Shown: piece after piece, positions 1 to 50,658 of the stretch | Position numbering within the stretch: position 1 is the first letter of the stretch | Layout of the letters: each line of letters starts with the position of its first letter | Virus record (IMG/VR): IMGVR_UViG_3300031134_000001 | Location: 1-64,000 of that record | Length of the DNA: 64,000 nt | Source: a virus | Taxonomy: Duplodnaviria > Caudoviricetes | Reading direction: 5' to 3' (one strand) | Made by a program: the position numbers and the translations under genes | The notes under the pieces: model-generated | The model's input: only the letters and a program-made list of their open reading frames with translations | What the model was told of the DNA's origin: nothing | The model's database searches: none

Positions 1-170
1 ATATGCTTGTACGCGGGCTGCGGTTCGATGAGCACGCCCTTGTGCTGCGGCTCACACATGAACTCGATAATCGGAATCAGTTGATCCCGATCTTCTTGGG
101 TAACTTGGCGCATGCCCAAGCGAGCCAGGCGTTGTTCCGTAAGTAAAAATTTAAGCAGATTATCAAGCAT
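1..170 (-). CDS. Hypothetical protein, N-terminal part only (runs off the window); third gene of the fibre/oxygenase cassette
   Basis: Read by hand on the minus strand: AGGAAA RBS, then ATG at 170, open to base 1 (MLDNLLKFLLTEQRLARLGMRQVTQEDRDQLIPIIEFMCEPQHKGVLIEPQPAYKH...). Starts 12 nt after the oxygenase stop. Confidence 0.7.
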   Translation of the reverse strand, partial: MLDNLLKFLLTEQRLARLGMRQVTQEDRDQLIPIIEFMCEPQHKGVLIEPQPAYKH

Positions 171-182
171 AGCATTTTCCTG

Positions 183-851
183 TTATTGGATCTTCGGACC
201 CATACCCCATACCACGATGGTTGCTCGGTCGCCCTTGGTCACAGGCATCACGCAGTGCGGGACGTGTGAGTAGAAGAACACAACAGTACCAGCAGGTGGT
301 CGCAGCGAGACAACGCTCTCTGGATTGCCGCCGATGTTCAGGAGCAGCTCACCCCCTTCGTATTCGTCTGGACCGGTCAAGAACAGCACGGCCGAGAGTT
401 TACGGTGCTCAGTCGACTCTTGGTTTTCATGCACGTCCACATGCCAGGTGTAATGCTGGTTCAGGCCGTACTTGGTAAACTGCATCGGGTTGAAGTGGTT
501 CAGCAGCAACTGGAACTTGTCGCGGTTGACCATGCCCATGGTGTCAGCCATCCGCTGGAGCAACCAGACCCGACCTTCGATTTCCGGCTGATTCGGATCG
601 TCGTTGATCCAAGCGATTTCCGAATCCCGGATTTCCTTGTCTTCGTGGTTGTTGCCAACCGAGCCGGCATGAAACACCATCAGTTCACCGAGCTCCCGGA
701 TCTTGCGGCACTCATCGCGTTCAGCGTTGTAGACCGGTGGTTGGCCTTCGGCTTCGACGTTCCACCCGTTGTTAAACGCGTTGAACAGTTCGCAATACGA
801 AACGTACGGGAAGGTACGTTCAGGAATGCCATAACGAGGATTTTGGTTCAT
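183..851 (-). CDS. 2OG-Fe(II) dioxygenase, PKHD/prolyl-4-hydroxylase-like
   Basis: QFTKY...YTWHVD (HxD), RKLSAVLFL, YEGGEL, GTVVFFYSHVPHCVMPVTKGDR (distal His and 2OG-binding Arg), WxxGP. AGGAAA RBS. Confidence 0.92.
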   Translation of the reverse strand: MNQNPRYGIPERTFPYVSYCELFNAFNNGWNVEAEGQPPVYNAERDECRKIRELGELMVFHAGSVGNNHEDKEIRDSEIAWINDDPNQPEIEGRVWLLQRMADTMGMVNRDKFQLLLNHFNPMQFTKYGLNQHYTWHVDVHENQESTEHRKLSAVLFLTGPDEYEGGELLLNIGGNPESVVSLRPPAGTVVFFYSHVPHCVMPVTKGDRATIVVWGMGPKIQ

Positions 852-875
852 GCTGTTTTCCTTTGTTAGTAGATA

Positions 876-3116
876 TTAGAATTGTTGCTTGACGATGACT
901 TGTGCGCCAGGACCCACGTTCACTGGGTACTTGCCGTCTGCGGTTGGGGTAACAGTCACCAGAGTATCTGCGACATAGTTACCACCTGCCGTACTCGCTG
1001 CGCCTGGGAAGACAACACCCAAAGCCGTGAACGGTTGCGAAGGCGCGCCTGTTGTGCTCGGATTGTAGACTGCACTGCCTGGCACGACTGGGTTGTAATT
1101 CGCGTTACCCGGCACGATTGGCGAATACACTGCGGTGCCAGCTACTGGGGGATTGTAGTTAGCATTGCCCGGTACGCCAGGGTTGTAGTTTGCGTTCCCT
1201 GGTGATGGCGGATTGTGTGTCGAGTTGCCAGGAATCGGCGGATTGTAATACGACGGATTGGAATAGCCCGGCGCCGGATACGGTGGCGTATACGTTGCAG
1301 GATTCGAATACGGCGGATTGGTCGTCGATGGATTGTACGTCGGCGGGTTGGTATTGCCCCACGTGATATTCGCTGGATTCGTGTTGCCTGGCGAATACGT
1401 ACCTGGGTTTGTGTTACCAGGAGAGTAAGTCGGCGGGTTAGTGTATCCGGGCGAAGAAATCGTACAGATGTGGTATTGCGTACCGGCGTTGTAACCATCA
1501 TTAAAACCACCATACGTCCAGCCTACAGGACACGAGTTTCGCGTCGGAACTTGCGTCTCATCGTAGTAGGGTGAATTGACGTTACCTGGAATTGTTGATC
1601 CTGGGTTGGTGTATCCGGGCGTGTAAGTCGGTGCATTGACATTACCCGGTGTTGTGATGTTCGGATTGGTGTATCCTGGCACCAGCGTCCCTGGGGAGTA
1701 CGATCCCGGCACTGGGTTACCCGGCGTCACGTATCCAGGCATGGTACCGCCCGACACGTAATTACCCGGAACCAAATTACCTGGCTGCGTTGGGTTCGAA
1801 CCAATGTAGTTACCAGGCGATGGCGGATTGTAGTTCGCCACATTTCCAGGCGTTCCAGTATTGTAATTAGCAACAGTGCCTGGCTTATCTGGATTGTATC
1901 CAGTTAACGCCCCTCCGGTTGGCGGATTGTAGTTAGCAATCGAAGCCGGTTTATCGGGGTTATACACAGCATTTCCTGGGGTTGGTAAATTATAATTAGC
2001 ATTCCCAGGTATTGCCGCATTGTAATTCGCATTGCCTCCCGTTGCCGGATTGGTGCCCGTTGGTGTGCCCGGAATCGCTGGGTTGTAGCCCGCTACTGTA
2101 CCAGCCAACGGCGGGTTGTAATTCGCGTTACCCGGTACCGCAGGATTGTAATTTGCATTACCGCCTGTGGTTGGGTTATAACGAATCACGCCTGCCGTGT
2201 AGGTCGGTGCGTTGGACGATGCTGGCACCCACGATGGTGGGTTGCTGTAGTTAAAGCTAGCGATATACGTCGGCGGATTGTAATACGACGGCTGGTAATT
2301 ACCAGCATTCGTGCCAACTGTACCAGCGCTATACGTGCCGTTATTGGTACCCGCATTGCCCGGCGTGTACGTACCTGGGTTGGTGTAACCCGGCAAGAAG
2401 ATCTCACACACCTTCACCGGCAGACCGTTGCCACTTACTACGTCGTCGTAACCAGCGTACGACCAGCCCACTGGACACGCGTGATTACGCGGCACGTAGG
2501 TGGTGTCGAAGGAATTCTGATTCGTGTTACCGGGCGTATAGTTACCTGGATTTGTATACGGATTACCAGGGGTGTAAGTTGGCGGGTTGGTAAACTGATT
2601 ACCCGGTGTGAACGATGCAGGTACCAAGTTGCCAGGAACGTAGGCGCTCGGATAAACCACGACGTTACCAGGCACTGTATAACCTGCCACGTAGTTACCC
2701 GGCGTGTACGACGGCGGTGTGGTGTAACGGTTACCGGGTTCAACTGGGTTGTAACCAGCCACTGCCACAGGTGTCGGTGGATTGTAGTTCGCCACCGTAC
2801 CGGGTGTGGTTGGATTGTAATTGGCTGAGCCGGCTACGGGTGGGTTGTAGTTAGCGTTACCGGGCACCACTGGATTGTACCCAACGATGTTACCAGGGGT
2901 GATGGGGTTGTAGTTGGCGACATTGCCAGGTGTTGCGGGATTGTACACCGCGTTACCAGGCACTTGTGGTTGGCCTGGCGAACCAGTGCCTGAGACAAGA
3001 ACGTGCGATTTGCCGTATTCTAATGCGACCACACCAGGAGCGTTAAACAGTGAGGTGCTAGGAACAATACGGGCATTCGTCCGTTCACGCCGAAACTTTT
3101 GCGTTAAACGAGTCAT
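876..3116 (-). CDS. Pro/Asn/Gly/Tyr-rich repeat protein, probably virion fibre-associated
   Basis: 746-aa ORF with AAGG RBS. About 22 YNP motifs (manual count) in YNPxxPGNAN-type units, plus YTPGN/TNPG units and two CPVGW...C modules. Non-repetitive termini. Lies directly downstream of a tail-fibre gene. Confidence 0.75.
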   Translation of the reverse strand: MTRLTQKFRRERTNARIVPSTSLFNAPGVVALEYGKSHVLVSGTGSPGQPQVPGNAVYNPATPGNVANYNPITPGNIVGYNPVVPGNANYNPPVAGSANYNPTTPGTVANYNPPTPVAVAGYNPVEPGNRYTTPPSYTPGNYVAGYTVPGNVVVYPSAYVPGNLVPASFTPGNQFTNPPTYTPGNPYTNPGNYTPGNTNQNSFDTTYVPRNHACPVGWSYAGYDDVVSGNGLPVKVCEIFLPGYTNPGTYTPGNAGTNNGTYSAGTVGTNAGNYQPSYYNPPTYIASFNYSNPPSWVPASSNAPTYTAGVIRYNPTTGGNANYNPAVPGNANYNPPLAGTVAGYNPAIPGTPTGTNPATGGNANYNAAIPGNANYNLPTPGNAVYNPDKPASIANYNPPTGGALTGYNPDKPGTVANYNTGTPGNVANYNPPSPGNYIGSNPTQPGNLVPGNYVSGGTMPGYVTPGNPVPGSYSPGTLVPGYTNPNITTPGNVNAPTYTPGYTNPGSTIPGNVNSPYYDETQVPTRNSCPVGWTYGGFNDGYNAGTQYHICTISSPGYTNPPTYSPGNTNPGTYSPGNTNPANITWGNTNPPTYNPSTTNPPYSNPATYTPPYPAPGYSNPSYYNPPIPGNSTHNPPSPGNANYNPGVPGNANYNPPVAGTAVYSPIVPGNANYNPVVPGSAVYNPSTTGAPSQPFTALGVVFPGAASTAGGNYVADTLVTVTPTADGKYPVNVGPGAQVIVKQQF

Positions 3117-3132
3117 TCTACCCTACCTTGTA

Positions 3133-4368
3133 TTAACGGGGATTTTTGTGGGACAGCGAGCCGGACCAGGTCACCATGTTGTCTTCGGAGTAGAAGTACC
3201 AGTCGTCTTTGGCACCGGCGGCTGTCGTGCGCGGCGGAGCGACACCGTCAACCCACTTGACATTCGAAGGCCATGCCAGTGCATATACCTTACCGGTTGC
3301 ATCGTTGATGGTGCTGATCGAGAACTCGACAACCTGATCGGTCATATCGCCCACCTTACGGATGTCGAAGCCGACGGCGCCGCTACCTGTGACAAACAAC
3401 TGGAACGCGCCAGCTTGACTGATGTCGATGGAGATCGTACCGGCCATGGGGATCTTGAGCAAGTTCTGCGAACCCAGGCCAATGAACTTTGGCCGCTGCA
3501 TGTTGGCTTTGGTCTTTAACTGTGCTTCGATCGAACCGAGTTGCGCTTGCAACTTCATGAACGACATCAGGATCGTATCGTCTTCAGTGAGGCTGACCGG
3601 ATCGGTGACGGTGAACTTAGCCAAACGCGTGGCCAGCACACGTGCTTCTGTGAAGTATTTATTTGTTGCACCTTCAGCGAAGTCGTCCGTGGTGCTTTGC
3701 AGGTTGGCCATGGCAGCTTCAATTGCCAGATCCATGTGCTCTTTGGACACAGCGCCGATATCGGCGGCGGTCAAATTGTGTACGTTACCACTGGCGCCCA
3801 TGTGCATCGTAAAGTCCGCCGAAGCTCGGGCCATCAGCGCATCGACAACACGGTTGACGGCTTCCACAACTTTGGTCATGCCGACCATGTCGCGCAGGTT
3901 CCATTCGTGTGGCACTGGCGGGAAGATGCTCGGGTAACCGGCGACACTCTCCCACGACGTCACGCGCGGGTTATGCGCTTTGTCAGCCAGGATTTGCAGC
4001 GTAGTGGCTGGATCGACGGTCCACTCTCCACCGACGGTCTGGTAAGGGTTGAAGATGACGGTGCCGCGCAGCTCGTTGTTGAGCATCGTGACCGAGCCGA
4101 AGACGGGCTTACCGCACGCACGCGTCGCGCCCACGAAGTGATGCGAGAAGTAGTAATCTTTGCCCAAGATCAGAGGACGGATGTCGCCCTGCAAGGACTT
4201 GAAGTTCATCGTCATGCTGTCGGCGAAGAACGGCGTCGCAGCTGGGATCAGGAAGATGAAGTTTTCATTGCCGCCACCCATCAAAGGCTGGAGTTCGCCA
4301 ATGACTTTGTTGGTAGTGGCTTGACCGGTTGGGTCAAAAGGGTATTGCGGGCTTGTCAGTGTAGCCAT
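3133..4368 (-). CDS. Tail fibre-like virion protein (phiKZ gp131-family-type N-terminus)
   Basis: N-terminal YPFDPTG...NKVIGE anchor motif; central TDDFAEGATNKYFTEAR and DTILMSFMKLQAQL fibre motifs; C-terminal LAWPSNVKWVDGVAP beta-sandwich. Start moved to ATG 4368 (GAGG RBS). Confidence 0.7.
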   Translation of the reverse strand: MATLTSPQYPFDPTGQATTNKVIGELQPLMGGGNENFIFLIPAATPFFADSMTMNFKSLQGDIRPLILGKDYYFSHHFVGATRACGKPVFGSVTMLNNELRGTVIFNPYQTVGGEWTVDPATTLQILADKAHNPRVTSWESVAGYPSIFPPVPHEWNLRDMVGMTKVVEAVNRVVDALMARASADFTMHMGASGNVHNLTAADIGAVSKEHMDLAIEAAMANLQSTTDDFAEGATNKYFTEARVLATRLAKFTVTDPVSLTEDDTILMSFMKLQAQLGSIEAQLKTKANMQRPKFIGLGSQNLLKIPMAGTISIDISQAGAFQLFVTGSGAVGFDIRKVGDMTDQVVEFSISTINDATGKVYALAWPSNVKWVDGVAPPRTTAAGAKDDWYFYSEDNMVTWSGSLSHKNPR

Positions 4369-4477
4369 GAAACGCACCTCTAAGATGGTCTGGGAAATGA
4401 TGCCAGGATAATGTTATGTTTGGTCCCAGCGACTATATTATCTCGGCGTTTAGCCTTTAAAGCAAAGGAATTTCCCT

Positions 4478-5728
4478 ATGTATCAACTGGTTTCTGCCAT
4501 CGTAAAGCCGGTCGACAGCGTGAGCCGTTGGCGCAATATGGGGATTGAAGAATTCCCATTGAACCTTCTGTTTCGCGACTTCAAGCGCGTGATCGTTACG
4601 CTTTCCCACACAGCGCTCGACCACTATGTCAGCTTGGAGCTGGAACCACTGCGGGCGCAATTAGGTGGCTTGAATAAAAAGTTCGGTCAGTGGCTCTCGG
4701 AAAATGGTTCCAACACGTTACCGACCTCCAACGTCGTACCGGTCATCAATACCCGCTACGCCCACTTTTCAGACGCAGTGCGTGCAGGTCACAAGATCAC
4801 GCCGACACACCCGACCATCTCGCCATCGAGCCCGCTGCCGCTGTCGAGCAAGTCGCACTTACTCATTACCAAAGCGGAAGCGGATTACGAACGGATCTAC
4901 AAGCACTGCTTGGTCAACGTCAATGGCTTCTACCATCAGACCGACCACAGTGTTGACGGCGTGTTTGTCACAGACGGCATGAAGACCTGTTTGAAAGGTC
5001 GACGCAACGAAATCGGCCTGCTCTCGTTTGAGAACTTGGGAGCACTGTCGTTTATCCCGATTACTGACGACATGATCTACAAGCACAAAGCGCAGCAACA
5101 ACTGCGCTACAACTGCTACGTCGACACGGGTGTGGATCTGTCGAGCAAAACCGTACTGTTGGTTCTGGGTGGTTATTTGCACACGCTTGACAAACGTTCG
5201 TTCTATCGCATCAGCACGAGCGCCTTCGGCATTGACTTCGCGCAGATCCCACTCATCGATCGTTACTTCGAATCGTACAAAGTGCTGGACTACAGCAGCT
5301 TGGAGTTGGAACGCTCAGACACCAACGAGAGTCAGATCAGTGTATCGAATCTGTACCAAGATGCGGTACTGCGCAAATACCTGCAACTGTCGCAAACGTT
5401 CTTGGTGGTGTTAGACAACGCTGAAGTCTTTACTGACACGGTCGAACTCAAGCCTTCGCCATTCCCCGGCAACTATACATCGGACGTTGCCCCGATCTAT
5501 CCGCTGATGGTAGGTCACGGTCGCCATGAAGTCTTCTGGCCACGTAAAGAGCACGATCGTTATTCGGTCAACATCAATGCGCGGGCAGCATGGACCGCCC
5601 CGAAGAACTACGACACCGTCAAAACGCAAGCACAAGCATCAGTCAGTAACGCCAAACTCGCCTCACTCGGTTTTCGTAATAGCAGCGCCCACTTCCAACT
5701 CATCGGCAGTGACTTCGATTTAGGTTAA
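4478..5728 (+). CDS. Conserved phiKZ-like virion structural protein (baseplate/fibre region)
   Basis: 416-aa ORF with AAGGA RBS, divergent from the fibre gene. Assignment rests on position and size (gp130-like arrangement), an inference. Confidence 0.5.
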   Translation: MYQLVSAIVKPVDSVSRWRNMGIEEFPLNLLFRDFKRVIVTLSHTALDHYVSLELEPLRAQLGGLNKKFGQWLSENGSNTLPTSNVVPVINTRYAHFSDAVRAGHKITPTHPTISPSSPLPLSSKSHLLITKAEADYERIYKHCLVNVNGFYHQTDHSVDGVFVTDGMKTCLKGRRNEIGLLSFENLGALSFIPITDDMIYKHKAQQQLRYNCYVDTGVDLSSKTVLLVLGGYLHTLDKRSFYRISTSAFGIDFAQIPLIDRYFESYKVLDYSSLELERSDTNESQISVSNLYQDAVLRKYLQLSQTFLVVLDNAEVFTDTVELKPSPFPGNYTSDVAPIYPLMVGHGRHEVFWPRKEHDRYSVNINARAAWTAPKNYDTVKTQAQASVSNAKLASLGFRNSSAHFQLIGSDFDLG

Positions 5729-5767
5729 CGTCATAGCTCCCCTCCCATCGCGGGAGGGGAGTATGCG
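5728..5767. terminator. GC-rich hairpin between convergent genes, CATA/TATG-flanked family
   Basis: ctcccctccc-atcgc-gggaggggag, flanked by acgtcata and tatgcg. Confidence 0.7.
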
Positions 5768-5769
5768 CT

Positions 5770-6027
5770 CTAGTCGGCAGTAGCCGATCCTGTACCGATA
5801 ATACCAGCACCGCAGCCTGCACGGTCGCCTGTGCGAACAATACCCCGTCCACTACCTGTGGCAGTAGAACTGGAGCTGATAGGCGTTGTGCCGTGACCTT
5901 TGATGGGGCACTGATGCATGTCGCCATGCACTACGCCATCAACACCGTCCACCGTAAAATTACCTGAGGCAGAAATGATTCGACCGCCGTGGTCACTACC
6001 ATCGCCTAACTTTGCAACATTGGGCAT
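5770..6027 (-). CDS. PAAR-domain spike tip protein
   Basis: 85 aa with AKLGDGSDHGG, HQCPIKGH and VRTGDRAGCGA (PAAR Zn-ligand His/Cys pattern). Directly downstream of the spike gene. Confidence 0.88.
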   Translation of the reverse strand: MPNVAKLGDGSDHGGRIISASGNFTVDGVDGVVHGDMHQCPIKGHGTTPISSSSTATGSGRGIVRTGDRAGCGAGIIGTGSATAD

Positions 6028-11473: not shown

Positions 11474-12108
11474 TATGGTTCTCGGATGGGGTTATCTTGG
11501 GCCAGTACGTAGGCTTCCAAGTCGTTGTATTTGGCGCGCAGGGCAACCAATGCTTCTTGCGCTACACGCAGTTTTGCCGCGTCAGTAACTACCGCACCCA
11601 TGACAACTTCACGCGCCGACTCGATGGCGGCGGCATCTTCCACAGTCAAGCTGGTCAAGCTCGACGCGAGCATGGCACGTACTGTCGCGTTTTGCACACC
11701 CATCAAGTCTCGGGCCATGTCCTTGAGTTGGCTCATGAAGTATTGCAAACTCAGGTCCTGTGGTAAGGCGCCTAAGTTCACGGTAACTAACATGGTGCCG
11801 TAGGGCACGCCAGTGGCCACTGGGAGCGATTCCAGATAGCTGTTGGGGACCTTTACCTCTTCCCCGTCCGAAGCTCGCAGCGTGACGATACAGACCCGGT
11901 CAGCCACGTCAGCTGCAAACTTCTCACGGTCGATTTCAAACGGCTCGTAAAAGAGAGCGTAAGGATCTTGGTTGGTTGACGCTACCGCATGCAGCGTTTG
12001 CAGACCAGTGACCTCGTAAGGCACACCAGCACTACACAAGCCCGTGAAGGGGTACTTGAGTTTGATGACACCGGACGAACCGATGCTAGGTTGGATATAG
12101 CGACTCAT
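11473..12108 (-). CDS. Conserved phiKZ-like virion protein
   Basis: 211-aa ORF whose stop overlaps the next start by one base; C-terminal coiled coil; structural operon context. Confidence 0.55.
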   Translation of the reverse strand: MSRYIQPSIGSSGVIKLKYPFTGLCSAGVPYEVTGLQTLHAVASTNQDPYALFYEPFEIDREKFAADVADRVCIVTLRASDGEEVKVPNSYLESLPVATGVPYGTMLVTVNLGALPQDLSLQYFMSQLKDMARDLMGVQNATVRAMLASSLTSLTVEDAAAIESAREVVMGAVVTDAAKLRVAQEALVALRAKYNDLEAYVLAQDNPIREP

Positions 12109-12111
12109 GGA

Positions 12112-13416
12112 TTAACCCATGTTCGATTTGGCAACCACGAGGTAGTTGACGTTCTCGTAGCTGCGCGTGATGTACAGAATGCCGTCACGCCGCACTTTCG
12201 TCATACCCACTGGGATGGTGGTGTATTGGCTGGCCGATTCCGCAGCGAACAACATCTGCTCGATCATGTACGCCCAGTCCTGGGTCTTCTTGGACATCCG
12301 GTTAAAGTCCACCGAAGTCGAGGTCACCGAAATGAAGTCCTTGAACATCTGGTTAAGCTTAAACACGCCGTTACGGTTGTCGGGCGAACCGATTGCCAGC
12401 AGTGCGACCGAGCGGTACGGGTGGCCAAAAGTCACCAAGTTCGAATCAATATGAGGTTGCGGGTATTGCGCCGCATATTGTTTCATTTTGGCCGGAGCAT
12501 TGGTGTGCACAACAAACGGCGAGTAAATGCCGGTGGCCAGTTCGCGGTTGGGAATAGCGTACTGGTCTTCGAGCGGCAGGATGATGAATTCTGTGCGCTT
12601 GAAAATGTCAGGGAAGATCTTGATCCATTCGTCACGCGTGCGTGCGGTGCGGTCCAAGATGTGTTCCATGATGGCGTCTTTGATCGAGTCGACGTTGTCG
12701 CCGGTAGGGCCGTAGATCAACACGCTCCAGTCGGTTGGCACCACGTGGTTCGAGTTCAGCGGATCGATATAATCGTACGTGTTGGTGCGGGTGACGGTAT
12801 CGGGGTACTTGCTCTTGGCCAGTTGGATACGATCCATGGTGGCCGAACTGGTCAGCGCTTTCACGAGCAGCTCGACTTCGGTACCTGGTTTGTGGAAGTT
12901 GTCCAGCGTGTCAAATGGCGGGATCACGTAGATCTCGTATTCATCGTATTGTTGCTGGAAGCTTTCGTCGACGAACCAGACCTTGAGGAAGTTCTCAGTG
13001 TGGCCATCGTCGGTCAAGCATTTCCACGACAGCCATTCTGGCAACGTGTAGCTGCCGTCCGAGACCATGTTGCCGCAGATGAAGTCACTGGCGTCACCCA
13101 CGAAATTGGTAATCAGGTTCTCCAGCAGCACGCCTGGCAGAATGTCGACTTGGCCGCTCAGTGTTTGGTTGTACACGAAATTACAAACCTTGAGCACTTG
13201 GTCGGCAATCGTTGTCGGGATCTTGATTGCTGTGTCGCCATCTTTCGAGATGAACGTCATGAGCGTCAAGTTCGGCGCGTTGTTGCGGTTACTGTAAATG
13301 CCTTTCTCACGGGAGAAGGTCGCGCCAATGGAAGACAACTCACCCAGCTTTGCGACGACGCCTGGTGTGTTGTTGGCGAAGGTTGTGTTGATGATGAAAC
13401 TCTTCAGTACGTACAT
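12112..13416 (-). CDS. Conserved phiKZ-like virion structural protein (gp157-like by position)
   Basis: ORF of ~434 aa; start moved to ATG 13416 (AGGAGA RBS); strongly biased codon usage. Confidence 0.6.
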   Translation of the reverse strand: MYVLKSFIINTTFANNTPGVVAKLGELSSIGATFSREKGIYSNRNNAPNLTLMTFISKDGDTAIKIPTTIADQVLKVCNFVYNQTLSGQVDILPGVLLENLITNFVGDASDFICGNMVSDGSYTLPEWLSWKCLTDDGHTENFLKVWFVDESFQQQYDEYEIYVIPPFDTLDNFHKPGTEVELLVKALTSSATMDRIQLAKSKYPDTVTRTNTYDYIDPLNSNHVVPTDWSVLIYGPTGDNVDSIKDAIMEHILDRTARTRDEWIKIFPDIFKRTEFIILPLEDQYAIPNRELATGIYSPFVVHTNAPAKMKQYAAQYPQPHIDSNLVTFGHPYRSVALLAIGSPDNRNGVFKLNQMFKDFISVTSTSVDFNRMSKKTQDWAYMIEQMLFAAESASQYTTIPVGMTKVRRDGILYITRSYENVNYLVVAKSNMG

Positions 13417-13533
13417 CGAATTCTCCTGCCGCAAAGGGCTTGGGTGAAGAGATAAAAAGGAGGCTAACTTGGGTATACTGACGTATGCTTAACTAGCCGT
13501 GTGTCTATAAAATAACTTCAAAAGGAATGAAGG

Positions 13534-17577: not shown

Positions 17578-19158
17578 GTGAGCTTATTACCCGGTAACCT
17601 GCAACAGGCCGCCTATATCAACCCATCCATTCCAGTCGGATGTGGCTTTGATATCCTGAACGGCGTGCTTTATAAAGGACTGCACCGTCAGTTCATCCTC
17701 TCGGGCGGTTTGTCCTACATCATGGGAATTGCCGCCAAAGGTAACGTGGGTAAGTCCACGCTGGCCGAGTGGTTCATGTATACCGCCATGTGCCGTGTGA
17801 CGTCGTGGGAATTCGAGACGCCAAGCGCCGGTATCTTCTACGACACGGAAATCAACAAGAACGAACCACGCATGACCGAACTGCAACTGGCCATCAAAGG
17901 TCTGTGCGGTCGTGATCTGTTCTCGGCTGGTCGCTTTAGCCTGACCAACAAAGTCCAGTACAGCGGCAACAAGTTCTTCGACATGATCAAAGACTGGCTC
18001 GATGCCAAGCGCAAAGATCGCAAAAACAGCTTCAACACCCCATTCGCTGACCGCGGTGGCAAGACCAACTTCAAGATGTTCGTACCAACGTTCTGCGCCG
18101 TGGACTCGTTGTCGGAATTCGATACCGACGATATCGACAAGGTCCGCGATAAAACGGAACTGGGTACGGGCGATCAGAACATCCTGAATATGCGCGCCGG
18201 TCTGGTCAAGGCCAACTTCCTGACCGAACTGCCACGCGTGACCATCCAGGCCAACAACTACACCGTGCTCGTAGCCCAGATGGGTAAGAACATGGACGTG
18301 GGTGCTTCGCCACACGCACCGAAACCGCAGCAGCTCAAGAACCTGCCAGCATCGGAAGCCATCAAAGGCGCCACTGCCAAGTTCACGTTCGCCACGCACG
18401 ACTGCTGGTGGATCGAAAGCTCGGCCCCGCTGTGGGACGATGAGATGAAGCCGGAGTACGTGATCGAGCCAGCCATGGCCCGTTCCAAAGACACCGACCT
18501 GCAAAAGACCAAGCTCAAGCAGCTGCGCTCCAAAGGCGGCCCATCTGGCGTGATCCACGAAATCCTCGTGTCGCAAAAGAACGGCATCCAGCCAGAGCTG
18601 ACCGAGTTCCACTACCTGCGTAGCTGCAAGCGTTGGGGTATGGAAGTCTCCGGTGGCGGTGGTTCGATCATGGAGATGCAACTCTACCCAGGCGTGAAGG
18701 TCAGTCGTCACACCGTCCGTATGCGCATCGACGAAGATCCGCTGTTCTGCAAGGCGCTGAACTTCACGATGGAAATGAAGCAGATGGAAGAACACTGGCC
18801 GTACGTCACTGAAGAAGGTTGGTTCGTCGATCCGGCAGAACTGTACCGCGGTTTGACCGCACGTGGTTACGACTGGAAGGTACTGCTCAACACCCGTGGC
18901 TACTGGTGTCTGGGCGAGGGCAAGGTGCCTGAACTGTGCACGTTCGACTTGTGGCGTATGTACCACGGCGGGTACCACCCGTACTGGTACGACAAAGCGG
19001 TCGGCGCTGAAGCTGCCAAGAAGGTCAACAAAGGCCCTCTGGAAGCCTTCATGAGCACGCTGCATCTCGGTCCTCTGTTGATCGATCTGCGTGAAGCCAA
19101 AGAGATCTACGGCTTTGCTAAGCCGATGGATGCTGCATCGGAACTCAAAGCAGCATAA
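17578..19158 (+). CDS. uvsX: UvsX/RecA-like recombinase
   Basis: GTG start after GGAG; Walker A GIAAKGNVGKST, FYDTE, Walker B AVDSLS; phiKZ-type C-terminal YDWKVLLNTRGYW...YHPYW. Confidence 0.88.
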   Translation: MSLLPGNLQQAAYINPSIPVGCGFDILNGVLYKGLHRQFILSGGLSYIMGIAAKGNVGKSTLAEWFMYTAMCRVTSWEFETPSAGIFYDTEINKNEPRMTELQLAIKGLCGRDLFSAGRFSLTNKVQYSGNKFFDMIKDWLDAKRKDRKNSFNTPFADRGGKTNFKMFVPTFCAVDSLSEFDTDDIDKVRDKTELGTGDQNILNMRAGLVKANFLTELPRVTIQANNYTVLVAQMGKNMDVGASPHAPKPQQLKNLPASEAIKGATAKFTFATHDCWWIESSAPLWDDEMKPEYVIEPAMARSKDTDLQKTKLKQLRSKGGPSGVIHEILVSQKNGIQPELTEFHYLRSCKRWGMEVSGGGGSIMEMQLYPGVKVSRHTVRMRIDEDPLFCKALNFTMEMKQMEEHWPYVTEEGWFVDPAELYRGLTARGYDWKVLLNTRGYWCLGEGKVPELCTFDLWRMYHGGYHPYWYDKAVGAEAAKKVNKGPLEAFMSTLHLGPLLIDLREAKEIYGFAKPMDAASELKAA

Positions 19159-28921: not shown

Positions 28922-31900
28922 TTAGCCTGGTGCGCGTGGACGTGCTACGCTAACCGGTGCGCGGGGCAATTCACTGGTGCGTCGTTCTGCAACCCGTGAT
29001 TGCTGCGAGGTGGGTGCGCTGTTGCTGTTATCTGGCGCAGCAACACTGGCTTGTTGTGGCATCTTCAGGAAGTTATCCCGAATCTGCACCATGACATCAA
29101 ACGTCTTCTGTTGAATGTCACGCGACTGTGTCAGCAGACTGTTCGTGTCACCCAGGTTCGAGATGCGCACATCGTTCTGCTGCTTGACCGTGGCCATCTT
29201 GTCTTGCATCGAGCTTTGTGGCATGAAGCCACTGGCCAACATTCCCACAGGCATACCACCGCCAGTTGGGGCTGCTACACTCGACGTTGCGCCAGGCAAC
29301 TTCGCCGCTTGGGTATCAGTCGAACTCGCTGTTGCCACAACCGCACCAATACCGACCGGCGCAGCTTTAGCAGCTGCCGCAGCAGGCGCAGGCTTGTTGC
29401 TAGCGATGGCTGGAGGCGGAGCAGATGCTTTACTAGCCACCATGCTTTCACCACCATCGTTAATCATGCCTTTGGCTTTGTTGCGGATTTTGTTGTTCAT
29501 CAACTGATAAACTTGCGCAATCGTCCGAGGCTGACGGTCCTTGGTGAAGAAGATGTTCGGGTTGGATTTGGCCTCTTTCGGGAAGAGCTGCGAGGCATTG
29601 GCACTTGGATCGGATTGCAAGAACTTGCGACCCGTAACAGGACCCATGAAGTGACCCATGTAAATATCCGTATCTGTCACTTCGCGACCAAGTTTACCTT
29701 GCATCTCGTTGAGACAGGTTTTCAGATACTCCGCACCCATCAGCGCATTGGCCCGCGGGTCAGTGCGTGATGCGTTAGGCGCAATGCCGTACTTGGCGCC
29801 ATGTTTCTTCAGCATCCAAGTCCACGTGTCTGAGACGAACTGATACAGACCCGTCGCACTACCGGTCGGGGCTGGAATCTTGTAATCGAACCCAGACTCC
29901 ACCGCAGCCATGGCCGCCATCAACTTAGGATCAACGCCTGCCATTTGCGATGCTGCCAAAATGGTGTCTTTCAACGCTGACCACGAACCATTACCTTTCG
30001 GCATTGGGATCGAGTTGACGTCGCCGCCCGTACCTTTACCCGGATGGACCATTGCCACACCACCGACCATACCGCCCGGTGCTTCACCGATCGGGTTGTT
30101 GCCCACTTGCGGACTAGGGCCTGTCGTCTGTGGAGTTGGACCGCCACCGAAGAACGACTTGGTCTTTTGCCACATGCTACTAACGCCAGCCATCAACCCA
30201 CTTGCCGCTGAAGCGATCACGCCCGGTTGGCTATTGGCTGCACTCTTGTTGGCCGATGGTTGGTTTGCACCTTTACCACCTGGCTCCACGAGAATCGCTG
30301 CTTTGGCCATGTCCTTCAAACCGAGAATGTTGGCGTCTGTACTACGAACGTCAGCATTCATTGCGTAACCATCCCACGGCGGCACCGTCACGTTCCAGAC
30401 ACTACCAGCCGGGCCGTTGGTGGTAAACAGCGCCGTTGCAACATCAACCGCCTGCAACGACTTGAGAAGTGTCTTGCCAGTTGCCGGATCGTCTTTCCCT
30501 GTTTGGGCTTTTATCAAGCTTGCGTAGTTCAAGAACACCGGCAGGAATCGCTGGTTGAACCAGCTAAACCAGTTGGCCGTCAACTCATCGTCGGTACTGT
30601 CCACACCAAATGCAGCGCCGTTATCGAGCAGCACCTGTTCTACGGAACCAGACCATGTCGCCACGTTCTTGCTGTAGAGCAGTTGGCCTGTGAGATACTT
30701 CTCCAAAGCTTTCAAAGTTCGCACCTTGTCCGCTTCCATCTTCACCAAGCCGTACGCTTTCAGACGCACCACGTCAACGCCGTCGAGTCGGTCCGTGCCC
30801 AGCGATTCGAGAATCGTCGAGGAACCAGCCGCCATGACTTGACCACCCTTAGCAGGCATGACCTTCACAGGCACACCCGCGCCAGCCAATGCTTTCGCAC
30901 TCACACCAGTTGACGTTACACCACTTGGCTTTGCACTGGCCGCAGCAGCGCCTGCAACACCGACTGCCGCTACTCCAGCTACGGCGGCTTTACTGCCAGG
31001 CGACTTCTTCTTGAATTCGTTCTCAGCGATCGCAACAATCGCTTTGACATCCCCGCCACCCGAAGGCAGCGATTTCAGATCTTTGAAGGGTGACGTCGTC
31101 ACGCCGTACGGACCTTCAGGGAAGCGAACCAAGTTCAGGTAGTTCAGTGCTGCTGGACCATCTAGGTTGTCAACGTCACTTAACCACTTGTCACTAGCGA
31201 CCGACTTGAGCGCTGCAACGTGAGTTAAGAACACTGGCTTGAAACGATTACCGAACCATTGCAACCAGTTGCCCATCGCTTCTTTATCATCCTCATCAAC
31301 ATCGAAGTCTTTAAAGAGCGACATGAGGTTAGCGCGCTTAGGATCGAGCTTCGCACCTTCCTTACCGTAGATGATGGCATCCTTGAGTTTGTCTTCGAGA
31401 CCAAAGACAGCAGACAGATGGTCTTTGTCTGTCGGTGCAAAACCGTACTGCACGTAACGAATCCGCGAAAGCAGACCCAACGTCTTACGTGTGTAGAGTT
31501 TGTACGCACCGTACCCCAGTGCCGCCACGGCCAGGCCACCCAATACCACCGGTGAAGCCAAGACACCCGCCACGGCTGCTGCGCCTGCGCCCAGTGCACC
31601 ACCCACTGCAGCAGCGCCTGAAGCGATAGCACCACCGGCTCCAGCGAACATGCTACCAACGCCCAACAGGCCACCCCCAATACCCATCGCAAACCGGCCA
31701 CCAGCCTTCAAACCACTCCAGCCTTTACCGGCAACAAACTTGGCTTTACCTTTCCAGCCTTGCGATGTGGCCCAGCTACCGCCAGGACGACGCGCCATCC
31801 GGCGTTTACGACGCTTGTCTTTCGAGTCACGCCCATCGCCGTCAAGTTCGATGTTGGTGTCACCACCTTCGTCGTCTTCTTCTTTCTTACCACGCAGTCG

Positions 31901-34900
31901 ATCCCAGAGCGACAGGCCACCTCCCGCTTTACCGGCTTTACCAGCTTCAGCTTGGGCTTTGGCTTGTGCCGCTTTCTCCTCCGCTTCTTTCTTGTTGCGC
32001 ATCTGGTCTTCGTAACTACCGTCACGATCACCGTCCCCGTCAGAATCGAGCGTACTGCGCACTTTGCGTTTAGGCAGACGATCCATCAACACATCCCGAA
32101 TCTCTTTCAGATACGAGACTTGTTCGGTTTGCAGTTCCACCGCTTTCTTGGTGATCTCAGCAGACGGGCCTTGACGGAATGGATTGCGACCGCGCAGGAC
32201 GTCCATCGAACCACCAGCCAGATTCACAGCAGCCGACACGCCTTTCTTACCCAGCGCGTAACCATTCTTGATCAAGCTCGTACCAGCGTCGTTAACCAGC
32301 TTACCGGCTTTCCACGCCAACTTACCTGCCGTACGAATTCCCGACATGGCAAAGTTAAAGAGCTTACCAATACCGCTACGGATTGGATTGCCGTTCTTGT
32401 CGACCAGACCTTTGCGCAGATCGTCGTGCGTAAGCACTGTCTCTACGTTAGGACCATCGCCGATTAAGACCGGACCATCAATCTTACCTGGGCTCTTAAT
32501 GACCTTACCCGAGGCCGCGGAGTAGTACACCCCAGCGCGCATCAACCGCGCCGTCATGACAGGGCTATCCAGACGGTCTTTGACAAACACGTCTTTGGCC
32601 AAGTCGAGTAGTCCCCAGACTTTCTTACCGACCGAGAAGGCCATCTTAAAGACAGGCGGGATACCTTTGGTGACAACGCCCAACAAGCCCTTGCCGAGTC
32701 CGTACGCGCCAGAAGCCACAGCGCCTAAGGCGTTGAGCGACTTCTTAACTGGACCGACCTTCTGCCAAGCCTGTTCGATTTCAGCAGCTTCAAGAACAGT
32801 CTCTTCGCCCGCAGCGGTTTTACGCACCACATCGCCGCGGATATCTTTCAGCCGACGAATCGGCTTACCAGTTTCTTTGTCGAAGTAGACGTTACCTTCT
32901 TGCAGCATCCGGCCATACAGTCGCGGCTTGCGTTCGTTACCAACGTAGATATCCACGAAGCCGCGCGCGCGGCGGTATTGACTACCGCCTACCAGACCAA
33001 TGCCGTCGGCAGCCAGACCAGCAGTACCTTTGATCGCACCCCAACCGAAACGCGCAGTACCACCCACTACCGTGTTGACAGCTTTTCCGCCGAAGCGGGC
33101 TGTGTTACCGATCATGCGGGCGCCGAAACCCACACTGCGGGCAGCGAATATCGCGCTACCTTTGACCACATCAACCAAACGCATGGCGCCGTTATTTACA
33201 GCACGCTTGGTCTTACGCACGATGCCGTCAGGTACACCACCTGTGGTGATAATACCGTCCTCCAAACGATCGCGGATACTTTCCAGAATCGTCTTGATTT
33301 CACCCAACGTGCCTTTGTGTTCTTCACCATCCAGACCACGCGACTCGTTACGTTGACGCATCTGTTCAGTCGCTTGTTGGATACGATCGTGGATGTTGCC
33401 AGCAGTCGAGCGAGCCCGGCCACTTAAGTCGGTGAACATCTGACCAGCTTGGCTGCGACGCTGACGCAGGTTCTCGCGGAACTCATCGCTGTTAACGTAG
33501 TCTTGCGCACGCTCTGCACTGCCACGTACTTGGTCCCAACGATTGCGCAGCATACCGCCCAACTCATTCATGCTAGGACGACCATCCCAAGCTTCTTGAG
33601 CGCGACGTTGTTGGTCGGTTAAGAACTCTTGCGCACCATCGATCTGTGGCTGATACTGCTGCCGGAGGCGGCCACCTTGTACTAAGGCTTGGCGCTGCAA
33701 ACGCTTAGCGCGGCGCTTGGCTTCTGCTGACAGCTCCTGCGCACGGCGCTTAGCCTCATCGATTTGGTCTTGATGCTGTTGTTTGAGGCGGCCACCTGAG
33801 ACCAACGCTTGACGCTTTAAGCGCCGAGCGTTACGTGCAGCAGACGATGCCAAATCACTCGCACCATCAATCGCCCGGTCAAACGCCGATGGACCACTTG
33901 CCCCGCCCATGTTGGCCAGATCGGCTTGCATGGCAGTTAAGATGTCTTTGATGTCCGACACCAAGGGTTTGCTGTTTTGCAGCTCAATCACAGCGATCAG
34001 CTTTTGCAGCTCATCAACCATGGTCGAACCGTTAGCGGTATCGTTCGCTGCCGGCGGACGTGGTAACTGTGGCGGCGTACCACGATTGCCACCACGCCAG
34101 ACTTGTGGCGTACGACGAACACCACCAATGCCTGGAGCGCCGTTGGCGTTGTACTGCTCGCCATCGAAGTAGCTGTAGACTTTCTCCATGTCGATCTGGG
34201 TCGACCCTGGCTTGATCAAGCCCATGTCTTCCAGCATATCGCGCGGATACACTTCGAGCAGCTGTTGGATTTCTTTCTTGCGGCTACCAGCTGAACGACC
34301 CACATCGCTAAAGCGGCTAGCGAACTGGTTGTTCAGTGAGAACTCCGAGGCTTTGTTCTTCTCGTTCAAAGCGCGGAACAGTTCAGCGAACTTCTCACCG
34401 TTTGCCGACTCATTGAAGTTTGACGCATTCTGATAGTTCGAGATGCGACCAGTCTCGTAGCCAGCGCGACCGCGCAGATTGTCCTTCATCAAGAGCTTGG
34501 TCAACTCAGCGCGTTGCTGTGGATTTAAAACACCTGCCGGATCAACCATCTCCATCAGGCTTTCTTGTTCCCGTTTCACGCCCTTCCTCGAATTTTCATC
34601 GAAGAGTTTGTTGAACACGGACTTACGAACGGCCTTGGTCGAAGAGAACGCACCGCGGCTATAGTCGTATTGGATCAGATCAACTGACGTGTCGCCCGTG
34701 CGAGCGATTTGTTGCTCTTGCACGATGCGCGCTAACAGACCTGGGATGACTTCCACAATCGTCTTGTGCGCTTGGTTACTGAACTGGGTCGGTGCGTAAA
34801 GATCAGCAACGCCCTTTTCCTTAACCTGGGTGTCTGTCGCATTAGCCCGACGGATCGTACCTTTGAACAAATCGATCAGTGGGTTGCCTGCCACGCCAGC

Positions 34901-48272: not shown

Positions 48273-48341
48273 GTATATACCTTTTTGTAAAGGAACTAGA
48301 CAACCTTAGTCATCTAATTCCATTTGGGGAGGGCTGGAGAT

Positions 48342-50423: not shown

Positions 50424-50658
50424 TATGTCAGGTTCCTGTCGCTAATAATGAATGGTATGGTTTCGGTATTGTTTTGAAGTCGATGCCCAGCATCATAGTA
50501 ATCGTAAAAAAATACTGGCAGGATCGGCGTAAAGTCCTACCTGTAATGTTAAAACAACCTGAGCGGACTCGACATTGGTTTAACATAGAATGTCGGGCAT
50601 ATAGGGGAAGGTAATATTTTTATCCTTCTCTTTGTCAAGAAATTAAGGATGAACTAGA

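What the first reader, a model, noticed from the sequence alone, without database searches (positions are those of the whole stretch)
1..4368. Candidate phage system for modifying its own virion protein: fibre + Pro/Asn repeat protein + prolyl-hydroxylase-like oxygenase
Seen: four tightly packed minus-strand genes (gaps of 16, 24 and 12 nt): a tail-fibre-like protein, a 746-aa protein made almost entirely of Pro/Asn/Gly/Tyr/Thr repeats, an intact 2OG-Fe(II) dioxygenase, and a further gene. Established: enzymes of this fold hydroxylate Pro (P4H, PHD) or Asn/Asp residues in peptides, and hydroxyproline stabilises collagen/extensin-type polyproline structures and can carry glycans. Inference: the oxygenase hydroxylates the adjacent repeat protein (xPG or YNP sites) to stiffen or decorate a virion appendage. 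That would make it a morphogenesis enzyme rather than the 'auxiliary metabolic gene' such oxygenases are usually called.
Basis: partly seen in the sequence, partly recalled or inferred. Interest (0 to 1): 0.82.

Follow-up and report, generated by a model that had tools for sequence, protein, structure and literature searches.

The report
Phage fibre repeat-protein hydroxylase cassette
A giant (phiKZ-like) phage carries, inside its tail-fibre operon, a hypervariable Pro/Asn-rich repeat protein followed by a prolyl-hydroxylase-type enzyme and two unknown partner proteins; the same gene set recurs in unrelated phage types, so some phages probably modify their own fibre proteins chemically, though no chemistry has been shown.

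Summary
Four tightly packed minus-strand genes encode a tail fibre, a 746-aa repeat protein (64% P/N/G/T/Y, period 10-11 aa), an intact PF13640 2OG-Fe(II) oxygenase, and a DUF6065-like gene that wraps around the record end.

Searching from the oxygenase, or separately from the repeat protein, finds one cassette: fibre, then repeat protein with conserved N- and C-terminal caps, then oxygenase, then DUF6065-A and DUF6065-B. It occurs in 24 of 62 dereplicated oxygenase lineages, in phiKZ-like jumbo phages and in T4-like phages. Cyanophage-type oxygenases lack it. Relatives add a Skp1-type GlcNAc transferase (PF11397) or a sulfotransferase (PF03567), which points to decoration of a protein.

The chemistry is not shown. 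Core proline content ranges from 4 to 31% among relatives, so xPG/YNP is not a conserved site. This genome has no PF11397 transferase. DUF6065 has a dUTPase-like fold and also occurs without the oxygenase, in bacteria and haloarchaeal viruses.

Earlier notes of this scan report similar cassettes on other DNA. Iyer et al. (2010) predicted analogous bacterial systems.

I rate it a new variant of a known kind, interest about 0.6.

The parts
3133..4368 (-). Tail-fibre gene 1 (411 aa from ATG 4368; the ORF is open from GTG 4377). The N-terminal half is a jumbo-phage fibre/virion attachment domain. The last ~120 aa are a fibre-end domain found upstream of every repeat protein.
   Evidence: PHROG hits; tblastn to jumbo phages; RBS at 4368. 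The C-terminal domain is homologous to the ORF directly upstream of the repeat protein in nearly all cassette loci. It is of the rV5/phi92 fibre-end type.
876..3116 (-). Repeat protein, 746 aa: conserved N-cap, hypervariable 10-11-aa YNPxxPGNxx-type repeats, two Cys-pair modules, conserved C-cap.
   Evidence: composition, periodicity; homologues; family alignment.
2967..3116 (-). N-cap of the repeat protein (aa 1-50), conserved across the family.
   Evidence: Alignment; HMM hits E 1e-12 to 1e-25 in 50+ loci; pLDDT 80-95 in the model of a short member.
879..1043 (-). C-cap of the repeat protein (aa 692-746), always at the extreme C-terminus.
   Evidence: There are 166 representative clusters at E <= 1e-3 in 1.84 billion proteins, each matching at the protein's end. 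pLDDT is about 92.
2406..2477 (-). First Cys-pair module (aa 214-237, CPVGW...C) interrupting the repeats.
   Evidence: similar CP.P...Y.C modules occur in relatives.
1464..1532 (-). Second Cys-pair module (aa 529-551).
183..851 (-). 2OG-Fe(II) oxygenase of the prolyl-hydroxylase/PKHD type (222 aa). Codons: H137 at 441-443, D139 at 435-437, H199 at 255-257, R209 at 225-227.
   Evidence: PF13640 E 8e-21; phrog_61; invariant residues; PDB profile hits; coordinates. It is the only PF13640 gene in the genome.
1..170 (-). First 56 codons of DUF6065-like gene A (267 aa). The gene continues at the record end (G000:C1:270273-271026; window 1-120 repeats record 270907-271026). Downstream, outside the window, follow DUF6065-like B, a tail-fibre-assembly-chaperone-like gene and fibre 2.

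Best explanation
The region is the front half of a conserved 'fibre-tip decoration' cassette of a phiKZ-like jumbo phage, all on one strand with gaps of 24 nt or less. The gene order is:
1. fibre 1
2. repeat protein
3. prolyl-hydroxylase-type oxygenase
4. DUF6065-A
5. DUF6065-B
6. a fibre-chaperone-like gene
7. fibre 2

**Shown.** The gene order and the intact catalytic residues are read from the sequence. The cassette recurs in jumbo and T4-like phages. The repeat core is hypervariable between two conserved caps.

**Inferred.**
- The repeat protein is a virion component that attaches to the conserved C-terminal domain of the fibre encoded just upstream, much as gp38-type adhesins attach to gp37.
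- Late in infection the oxygenase, working with the two DUF6065 proteins, hydroxylates residues of the repeat region. The most likely targets are prolines in x-Pro-Gly or Asn-Pro contexts.
- In relatives the product is further GlcNAc-ylated (PF11397/GT60) or sulfated (PF03567). In this phage hydroxylation would be the only added step.
- The likely effect is to stiffen or change the surface of a receptor-binding appendage.
For: - **Operon.** There are no minus-strand terminator-like sites between the genes, and each start has an RBS-like motif.
- **Enzyme type.** The HxD...H...R residues are intact. The PDB profile hits, in order, are PKHD hydroxylases at E 1e-15, the PBCV-1 P4H at 4e-10, then the Chlamydomonas and B. 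anthracis P4Hs.
- **Linkage from the oxygenase.** All relatives at about 37-75 % identity have a cap-bearing repeat ORF upstream and DUF6065-A/B downstream. More distant cyanophage-type oxygenases have none.
- **Linkage from the repeat protein.** All 5 assembly look-ups carry PF13640 and DUF6065. So do 36 of 37 evaluable viral contigs.
- **After dereplication at 90 %.** Of 62 oxygenase clusters, 24 have both partners, 33 have neither and 5 are partial. On the tree the cassette label needs 3 changes, against 20.8 when shuffled.
- **Backbones.** The window has a split RNAP beta and is phiKZ-like. L088 carries T4 gp13/14/15 and a terminase.
- **Extra tailoring genes in relatives.** PF11397 at E 1e-22, Sulfotransfer_2, and GT25 with GT_PLOD. 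L090 keeps the fibre and repeat protein with a sulfotransferase-like gene but no oxygenase, so the repeat protein is the common non-enzyme element.
- **DUF6065 and hydroxylases.** DUF6065 is fused to PF13640 in a viral protein cluster and to Cupin_8/JmjC in a bacterial one.
- **Fibre link.** Every repeat gene follows a fibre that shares one C-terminal domain.
Against: - No chemistry is shown, and no cultured phage with the cassette was found in the phage collection. There is therefore no virion proteomics.
- Core proline content varies from 3.9 to 31 % among family members. The L017 and L106 repeats (YNAQNVAS-type) have almost no Pro or Gly, yet keep the oxygenase.
- L090 has PG-rich repeats without any oxygenase.
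- DUF6065 has a dUTPase/dCTP-deaminase fold (Z 9.9-5.8). It occurs alone in 79 of 79 bacterial loci examined. It also occurs in haloarchaeal viruses that lack PF13640, beside thymidylate synthase. Its role need not be protein modification.
- The nearest solved relatives, the PKHD-type hydroxylases, have no substrate named in the entry titles or in the papers found.
- The linkage could partly reflect co-inheritance of a mobile fibre cassette.
Confidence: 0.5

Rival explanations
1. The oxygenase and the DUF6065 pair mature or assemble the fibre itself. They would act on the conserved C-terminal fibre domain, or serve as assembly factors alongside the chaperone-like gene. The repeat protein would be only a co-assembled tip protein.
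For: The fibre C-terminal domain is as constant a neighbour as the repeat protein. The enzymes sit between two fibres that both carry this domain and next to a Phage_tail_APC-like gene. An earlier scan note on phiKZ describes an oxygenase cassette that follows fibre genes sharing one C-terminal domain (I did not check it).
Against: The same fibre-end domain is common in rV5- and phi92-like phages, and that search turned up no cassette-bearing phage. Fibre 2 of this genome has the domain but is not followed by enzymes of its own. The extra GT60 and sulfotransferase genes fit a repetitive, Thr/Pro/Tyr-rich substrate better than a ~100-aa globular domain.
Confidence: 0.17
2. The enzyme does modify the repeat protein, but at a residue other than proline. 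Asparagine (beta-hydroxylation) or the aromatic residue of the [YFW]-N motif are the candidates.
For: Asn is the only residue enriched in every family member (8-26 % of the core). The invariant columns of the family alignments are mostly Asn. Pro-poor members keep the oxygenase. In a bacterial cluster DUF6065 is fused to Cupin_8/JmjC domains, the family that includes Asn hydroxylases.
Against: All characterised relatives found by the profile are prolyl hydroxylases. From general knowledge, known protein Asn/Asp hydroxylases belong to other 2OG families. L109 and L110 have one [YFW]N in the core yet keep the oxygenase.
Confidence: 0.15
3. The oxygenase and DUF6065 proteins act on something other than virion proteins, such as a host protein (EF-Tu or a ribosomal protein), a nucleotide or nucleotide-sugar, or a small molecule. 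They would then sit among the fibre genes only because that region accumulates accessory genes.
For: DUF6065 has a dUTPase-like fold. It stands alone in bacteria. In haloarchaeal viruses it lies next to thymidylate synthase and DNA polymerase. Related cyanophage oxygenases are annotated as auxiliary metabolic genes. The nearest solved relatives have unknown substrates.
Against: The order repeat protein, oxygenase, DUF6065-A, DUF6065-B is kept, with gaps of a few nucleotides, across oxygenases only ~40 % identical and across two phage backbones. The genes are co-directional with late structural genes. Hitch-hiking does not predict that 36 of 37 repeat-protein loci carry the enzyme.
Confidence: 0.15

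Closest known systems
PBCV-1 (chlorovirus) prolyl 4-hydroxylase (PDB 5c5t) with the virus's own proline-rich repeat proteins
   Same: A virus-encoded small P4H-type 2OG oxygenase, and virus-encoded proteins with short Pro-rich repeats as presumed substrates. Found by the profile at E 4e-10.
   Different: That is a eukaryotic virus, and as I recall its repeats are PAPK-type. Here the host is bacterial, the repeats have a 10-11-aa period and are Asn/Tyr-rich, the enzyme is genetically welded to one substrate candidate and to two DUF6065 proteins, and its nearest solved relatives are PKHD-type hydroxylases rather than the PBCV-1 enzyme.
Skp1 hydroxyproline glycosylation pathway of protists: PhyA prolyl 4-hydroxylase, then Gnt1 (PF11397/GT60)
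   Same: T4-like relatives of this cassette pair a PF13640 oxygenase with a PF11397 transferase in one operon.
   Different: The window's genome has no PF11397 gene. Skp1 carries a single target Pro, whereas this candidate substrate is a long hypervariable repeat. From general knowledge GT60 also includes Ser/Thr GlcNAc transferases, so a Hyp link is not implied.
Bacterial dioxygenase + sulfotransferase neighbourhoods with collagen-like or tail-collar proteins (Iyer, Abhiman, de Souza & Aravind 2010, PMC2938197)
   Same: They predicted hydroxylation followed by sulfation of co-encoded glycine-rich or tail-collar proteins, using the same gene-neighbourhood logic. Sulfotransfer_2 genes occur in variants of this cassette.
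   Different: Those systems are bacterial, use beta-hydroxylase-family enzymes and involve collagen-like G-X-Y peptides. The same paper read the cyanophage dioxygenase arrays as secondary metabolism. It does not describe the cap-flanked repeat family or DUF6065.
PKHD-type hydroxylases (Sbal_3634 PDB 3dkq; PiuC/YbiX)
   Same: They are the closest solved sequences (E 1e-15 to 4e-14, aligned over ~170 residues including HxD, the distal His and Arg). NCBIfam PRK05467-type models hit below their cut-offs.
   Different: They are bacterial stand-alone genes. Their substrate is not named in the PDB titles or in the papers found. NCBIfam scores of 46-62 bits lie far below the equivalog cut-offs of 143-399.
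gp38-type tail-fibre adhesins of T2/S16-like phages (glycine-rich motifs around hypervariable segments)
   Same: A gene directly after a fibre gene, conserved attachment parts, and a Gly/Pro-rich hypervariable middle. This comparison rests on memory and was not tested.
   Different: No sequence or fold match was obtained. The cap domain gave only generic beta-sandwich matches (Z < 6). gp38 adhesins are not known to travel with tailoring enzymes.

Membership tests
2OG-Fe(II) oxygenase, P4H/PKHD branch (PF13640) | Match to the family model above the curated cut-off | tested here: met
   75.2 bits against a cut-off of 27, E 8e-21; 74.2 bits in the six-frame genome search.
2OG-Fe(II) oxygenase, P4H/PKHD branch (PF13640) | HxD...H iron triad and a basic residue for the 2OG C5 carboxylate | tested here: met
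   H137, D139, H199 and R209 are invariant in 15 homologues and align to the corresponding motifs of 3dkq and PiuC.
Peptidyl-prolyl 4-hydroxylase (functional class) | Hydroxylates peptidyl proline | not testable with these tools
   Only homology and gene context are available. The complex prediction with a repeat segment gave no verdict.
PKHD-type hydroxylase YbiX/PiuC (NCBIfam PRK05467 equivalogs) | Score above the equivalog cut-off | tested here: not met
   Best score 61.6 bits against a cut-off of 143. The others score 46-51 bits against 180-399.
Skp1-type Hyp-GlcNAc pathway (P4H + PF11397/GT60) | A PF11397 transferase encoded with the hydroxylase | tested here: not met
   No PF11397 match in the 271-kb genome at E <= 0.1. 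It is present in T4-like relatives.
Collagen-like protein | Gly at every third residue (G-X-Y runs) | tested here: not met
   The period is 10-11 aa, and autocorrelation at lag 3 is 0.063, the lowest of lags 3-24.
Extensin (PF02095) | Score above the Pfam gathering threshold | tested here: not met
   22.1 bits against a cut-off of 105. This is a composition-driven match.
Cap-flanked phage repeat protein family (defined here) | Conserved N-cap and C-cap around a variable repeat core, directly after a fibre gene | tested here: met
   For the window's protein the C-cap hit was obtained directly (E 1e-18, via L082). Its N-cap aligns with the family. The upstream fibre shares the family's C-terminal domain.
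DUF6065 (PF19541), the gene at window 1-170 and its paralogue | Match to the Pfam model; dUTPase-like fold | tested here: inconclusive
   The window's own copy scores 20.9 bits against a cut-off of 26.6, while its 77 %-identical orthologue reaches 27.3. All 14 aligned members hit DUF6065 (best E 1.8e-13). The model (pLDDT 83) matches dUTPases at Z 9.9. Paralogue B has no Pfam hit, but its Atlas structural neighbours are DUF6065 clusters.

The most novel reading that the evidence does not exclude
Tailed phages of at least two unrelated lineages carry a mobile cassette that post-translationally hydroxylates a hypervariable, cap-flanked repeat adhesin at the fibre tip. In relatives the cassette then glycosylates or sulfates it. 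The hydroxylation is done by a P4H-like oxygenase that needs a heteromeric pair of dUTPase-fold DUF6065 proteins as a new kind of hydroxylase partner. This would be the first hydroxylated virion protein known in a bacteriophage, and it would assign a function to DUF6065.
Probability: 0.4. Interest if true: 0.8.

Novelty: new variant of a known kind. Interest (0 to 1): 0.62.

Why it matters
Phage 2OG-Fe(II) oxygenases are abundant and are routinely labelled auxiliary metabolic genes without evidence.

This cassette offers a concrete, testable alternative for one clade of them. The candidate substrate is encoded one gene upstream, the accessory proteins one and two genes downstream, and natural variants add or drop a glycosyltransferase or a sulfotransferase.

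If the inference holds:
- phage receptor-binding appendages can carry enzyme-made hydroxyl, sugar or sulfate groups that genome-based host-range prediction cannot see;
- DUF6065, a family found here in 557 stretches of bacterial genome contigs and also in archaeal viruses, gets a first functional context;
- the family of repeat proteins with conserved caps and free-running cores becomes a new scaffold for studying rapid adhesin evolution.

Tried and rejected
- **Complex prediction.** Oxygenase + repeat residues 46-100 + Fe gave score 0.00, no verdict. It counts neither for nor against binding.
- **Phage collection searches with the window.** Megablast of window 1-6000 and tblastn of the repeat protein found nothing. 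The low-complexity filter, or omission of near relatives, may explain this.
- **Family-wide search with alignment A4.** The narrower alignment A5 worked.
- **Fold of the repeat region.** The Atlas model of the 746-aa protein is unusable (pLDDT 0.37). AlphaFold2 of a short member leaves the repeats at pLDDT 35-40. Only the caps fold, and they match nothing specific (best Z 5.9).
- **Collagen and extensin readings.** Both were rejected (see the membership tests).
- **DNA-modification reading** (oxygenase + dUTPase-fold + GT as a base-hypermodification system). I rate this unlikely: the oxygenase is P4H-type, not TET/JBP, and the genes lie inside the late fibre operon. It is kept within the third rival.
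- **Bacterial DUF6065 contexts.** In 79 loci the gene stands alone with no recurring neighbour seen, so this gave no functional lead.
- **Promoter and terminator scans.** Counts were at or below the shuffled expectation.
- **Literature.** No paper mentions DUF6065. None was found on phage virion hydroxyproline or P4H with fibres. The PiuC papers found do not give a substrate.
Full report
**1. What is in the sequence**

The window is the first 64 kb of a 271,026-bp phage record with direct terminal repeats. Window bases 1-120 repeat the last 120 bases of the record, so genes run across the record's ends. The phage is phiKZ-like: the window encodes split RNA polymerase beta subunits, a 2425-aa tail protein with a transglycosylase domain, and a large terminase. 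A PAAR protein, a baseplate protein and an SbcC-like ATPase lie next to the finding.

On the minus strand I confirm the following genes:
- a fibre gene at 3133-4377, whose likely start is the ATG at 4368 behind an AGAGGTG ribosome-binding site;
- a 746-aa repeat protein at 876-3116;
- a 222-aa oxygenase at 183-851;
- a gene that starts at 170.

The fourth gene continues at the record end and encodes a 267-aa DUF6065-like protein ('A'). Downstream of it lie a 263-aa paralogue ('B'), a 160-aa gene resembling tail-fibre assembly chaperones, a second fibre (358 aa) and then lysis-like genes. I found no minus-strand terminator-like site inside the fibre-to-B stretch. The scans carry little weight, because the counts are at or below the shuffled expectation.

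**2. The repeat protein**

Pro, Asn, Gly, Thr and Tyr make up 64.5 % of the protein. YNP occurs 22 times and PGN 29 times, against 1.7 and 2.3 expected and maxima of 7 and 9 in 5000 shuffles. Successive YNP motifs are 10-11 residues apart. Tandem Repeats Finder sees no DNA repeat, so the periodicity is maintained at protein level.

Homologues exist, and their alignment shows the real architecture:
- a conserved N-terminal cap of about 45-50 aa;
- a conserved C-terminal cap of about 55 aa;
- between them a repeat core that differs freely, even among close relatives.

Across 37 distinct family members the core ranges widely:

| Core property | Range |
|---|---|
| Pro | 3.9 to 31 % |
| Asn | 8 to 26 % |
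| [YFW]-N motifs | 1 to 56 copies |

Unit types include YNPxxPGNxx, YNAQNVAS, FNAPTNGPQN and FTPGNPTPPNAG. Many members, including this one twice, carry a short Cys-pair module inside the core.

AlphaFold2 on a 268-aa member models both caps with pLDDT of about 80-95 as beta strands and leaves the repeats at 35-40. The cap domain matches only generic beta-sandwiches (best Z 5.9). A profile of the C-cap finds 166 representative clusters among 1.84 billion proteins. In the rows I inspected the match ends at or within a few residues of the C-terminus. The family is real, rare and undescribed in Pfam.

**3. The oxygenase**

The oxygenase matches PF13640 at 75 bits. H137-x-D139, H199 and R209 are invariant in 15 homologues. 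A profile search of PDB sequences puts the hits in this order:

| Hit | E-value |
|---|---|
| PKHD-type hydroxylases (3dkq, PiuC) | 1e-15 to 4e-14 |
| PBCV-1 P4H | 4e-10 |
| Chlamydomonas P4H | 4e-8 |
| Bacillus anthracis P4H | 2e-7 |
| Pseudomonas EF-Tu prolyl hydroxylase (4iw3; identity from memory) | 2e-6 |

NCBIfam equivalog cut-offs for YbiX-type enzymes are not reached. The enzyme is therefore an intact member of the prolyl-hydroxylase branch, but it is not an orthologue of any characterised enzyme. It is the only PF13640 gene in the genome.

**4. The linkage test**

*Starting from the oxygenase.* A scan of viral contigs returned 80 loci. In the nearest ones (about 37-75 % identity), the ORF that ends just before the oxygenase is a repeat protein with both caps, and two DUF6065-like genes follow. 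The more distant, cyanophage-type oxygenases have neither.

*Starting from the repeat protein.* This is the independent direction.
- All 5 assembly look-ups carry PF13640 and DUF6065 next to or a few genes after the repeat gene.
- 36 of 37 evaluable contigs found with the N-cap carry the oxygenase and both DUF6065 genes.

*After dereplication.* At 90 % identity there are 62 oxygenase clusters: 24 with both partners, 33 with neither and 5 partial. In a maximum-likelihood tree the cassette enzymes fall into one group of 26 plus a small second group. The label needs 3 changes, against 20.8 for shuffled labels.

*Backbones.* The cassette sits in phiKZ-like jumbo phages with the same synteny as the window (L001, L002, L210, L211). 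It also sits in T4-like phages just upstream of gp13/gp14/gp15.

*The fibre.* The ORF directly upstream of the repeat gene is, in almost every locus, a fibre whose last ~100 residues are homologous to residues ~290-411 of the window's fibre, while the rest of the fibre varies from about 280 to over 1700 aa of open frame. That end domain is also common in rV5- and phi92-type phages. In some jumbo relatives the second fibre has its own repeat protein.

**5. Variants that inform function**

- Most T4-like cassettes add a PF11397 'GlcNAc' transferase (E 1e-22), the family of the Skp1 hydroxyproline GlcNAc transferase.
- Several add a Sulfotransfer_2 gene.
- One locus has a GT25/GT_PLOD gene nearby.
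- L090 keeps the fibre, the repeat protein and a gene with a PKTG-type motif resembling those sulfotransferases, but lacks the oxygenase and DUF6065. Pfam gave no sulfotransferase hit for that gene.

The element common to all these enzyme sets is the repeat protein, which is what one expects of a shared substrate. The window's own genome has no PF11397 gene, so here hydroxylation would be the only tailoring step.

**6. DUF6065**

Protein A folds with pLDDT 83 into a dUTPase/dCTP-deaminase-like barrel. The top 22 structural matches are all from that superfamily (Z 9.9 to 5.8), followed by a drop to 4.7. Many polar residues are invariant, which suggests a binding or catalytic site.

The ESM Atlas lists a viral cluster in which DUF6065 is fused to PF13640, and a bacterial cluster in which it is fused to Cupin_8/JmjC. 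These fusions link it to protein hydroxylases.

Against a strict dependence:
- homologues stand alone in 79 of 79 bacterial loci examined, mostly Rhizobiales;
- they occur in haloarchaeal myoviruses that lack PF13640, between thymidylate synthase/DNA polymerase and baseplate genes.

The role of DUF6065 stays open. It could be an accessory subunit, a nucleotide-binding enzyme or an assembly factor.

**7. Interpretation**

The most economical reading is a fibre-tip decoration cassette. The oxygenase, probably together with DUF6065-A/B, hydroxylates the repeat protein, and that protein attaches to the conserved fibre end. I put this at about 0.5.

Proline is the likeliest target because every characterised relative is a prolyl hydroxylase and this protein offers 49 Pro-Gly sites. 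Asn is the only residue enriched everywhere.

The rivals are:
- action on the fibre end domain, or a role in assembly;
- hydroxylation of a non-proline residue;
- a target unrelated to the virion.

A complex prediction of the oxygenase with a repeat segment gave no verdict.

**8. Comparison with what is known**

- A virus-encoded P4H with viral proline-rich repeat proteins is known from chlorovirus PBCV-1.
- P4H followed by a GT60 transferase is the Skp1 pathway of protists.
- Iyer et al. (2010, PMC2938197) predicted hydroxylation followed by sulfation of collagen-like and tail-collar proteins in bacterial gene neighbourhoods. They read the cyanophage dioxygenase arrays as secondary metabolism.
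- I found no paper on hydroxylated phage virion proteins, on this repeat family or on DUF6065.
- Earlier notes of this scan describe similar cassettes in other genomes: a P4H-type enzyme with DUF6065 beside Gly/Asn-rich or collagen-like fibres, and P4H with GT60. The scan has therefore found this before on other DNA. Those notes are unchecked AI readings and are not independent evidence.

**9. Verdict**

The linkage is strong. The chemistry, the target residue and the role of DUF6065 are unproven.
- It is a new variant of a known kind.
- It is a well-defined system that can be taken to the bench directly.

Noticed in passing
window 1-120 and G000:C1:270907-271026: The record's two ends are the same 120 bases (an assembly overlap of a circular or terminally redundant genome). 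Any gene call at the window start is therefore truncated artificially.
   Followed up: yes
L109:9665-10366, L124:9382-10014, L128:9360-10067, L017:7222-7914: Sulfotransfer_2 (PF03567) genes are inserted in some cassette variants: between the oxygenase and DUF6065-A in L109 and L124, and just upstream of the oxygenase in L128 and L017. L090 has a similar PKTG-motif gene but no oxygenase.
   Followed up: partly
L087:13510-15344: A Glyco_transf_25 + GT_PLOD protein lies about 2 kb downstream of a cassette in a T4-like phage. From memory, these are the domains of the collagen hydroxylysine glycosyltransferases.
   Followed up: no
L089 (Halovirus HSTV-2, gene 40) and HF1/HF2/HRTV relatives: Close DUF6065-A homologues (30-35 % identity, HMM E 7e-71) occur in haloarchaeal myoviruses that have no PF13640 gene. 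The gene sits between thymidylate synthase/DNA polymerase and the baseplate genes.
   Followed up: partly
L131-L209 (bacterial genome contigs): DUF6065-A homologues were found in 557 stretches of bacterial genome contigs, mainly Rhizobiales, Comamonadaceae and Actinomycetota. In the 79 loci examined the gene stands alone, with no oxygenase or paralogue within 6 kb.
   Followed up: partly
window 1464-1532 and 2406-2477; homologues P0006, P0007, L017, L090: A short two-cysteine module (CP.P/G ... Y.C, about 23-30 aa) recurs in the middle of otherwise unrelated repeat cores. It may be a turn or tip element, or a metal or disulfide site.
   Followed up: no
L007 and L014: Two complete or partial cassettes lie in tandem in one contig (two repeat proteins, two oxygenases). 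In L007 the first repeat protein is 1245 aa with 79 PG motifs.
   Followed up: no
window 11989-13455(+)/12112-13434(-), 17578-19158(+)/17587-19251(-), 48324-50477(+)/48342-50423(-): Three pairs of near-full-length open frames lie on opposite strands over the same DNA. Which strand codes was not examined.
   Followed up: no
window 28922-36199 (-): A 2425-aa protein matches phrog_3201 ('tail fiber protein', 1108 bits) and has an internal transglycosylase domain (aa 2064-2300). It is probably the tail tape-measure or lysin protein of this jumbo phage.
   Followed up: no
L010:10990-11451, also L004 and L009: A small CxxCxxCC-type (PF03692-like, weak) protein follows the PF11397 transferase in several T4-like cassettes.
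   Followed up: no
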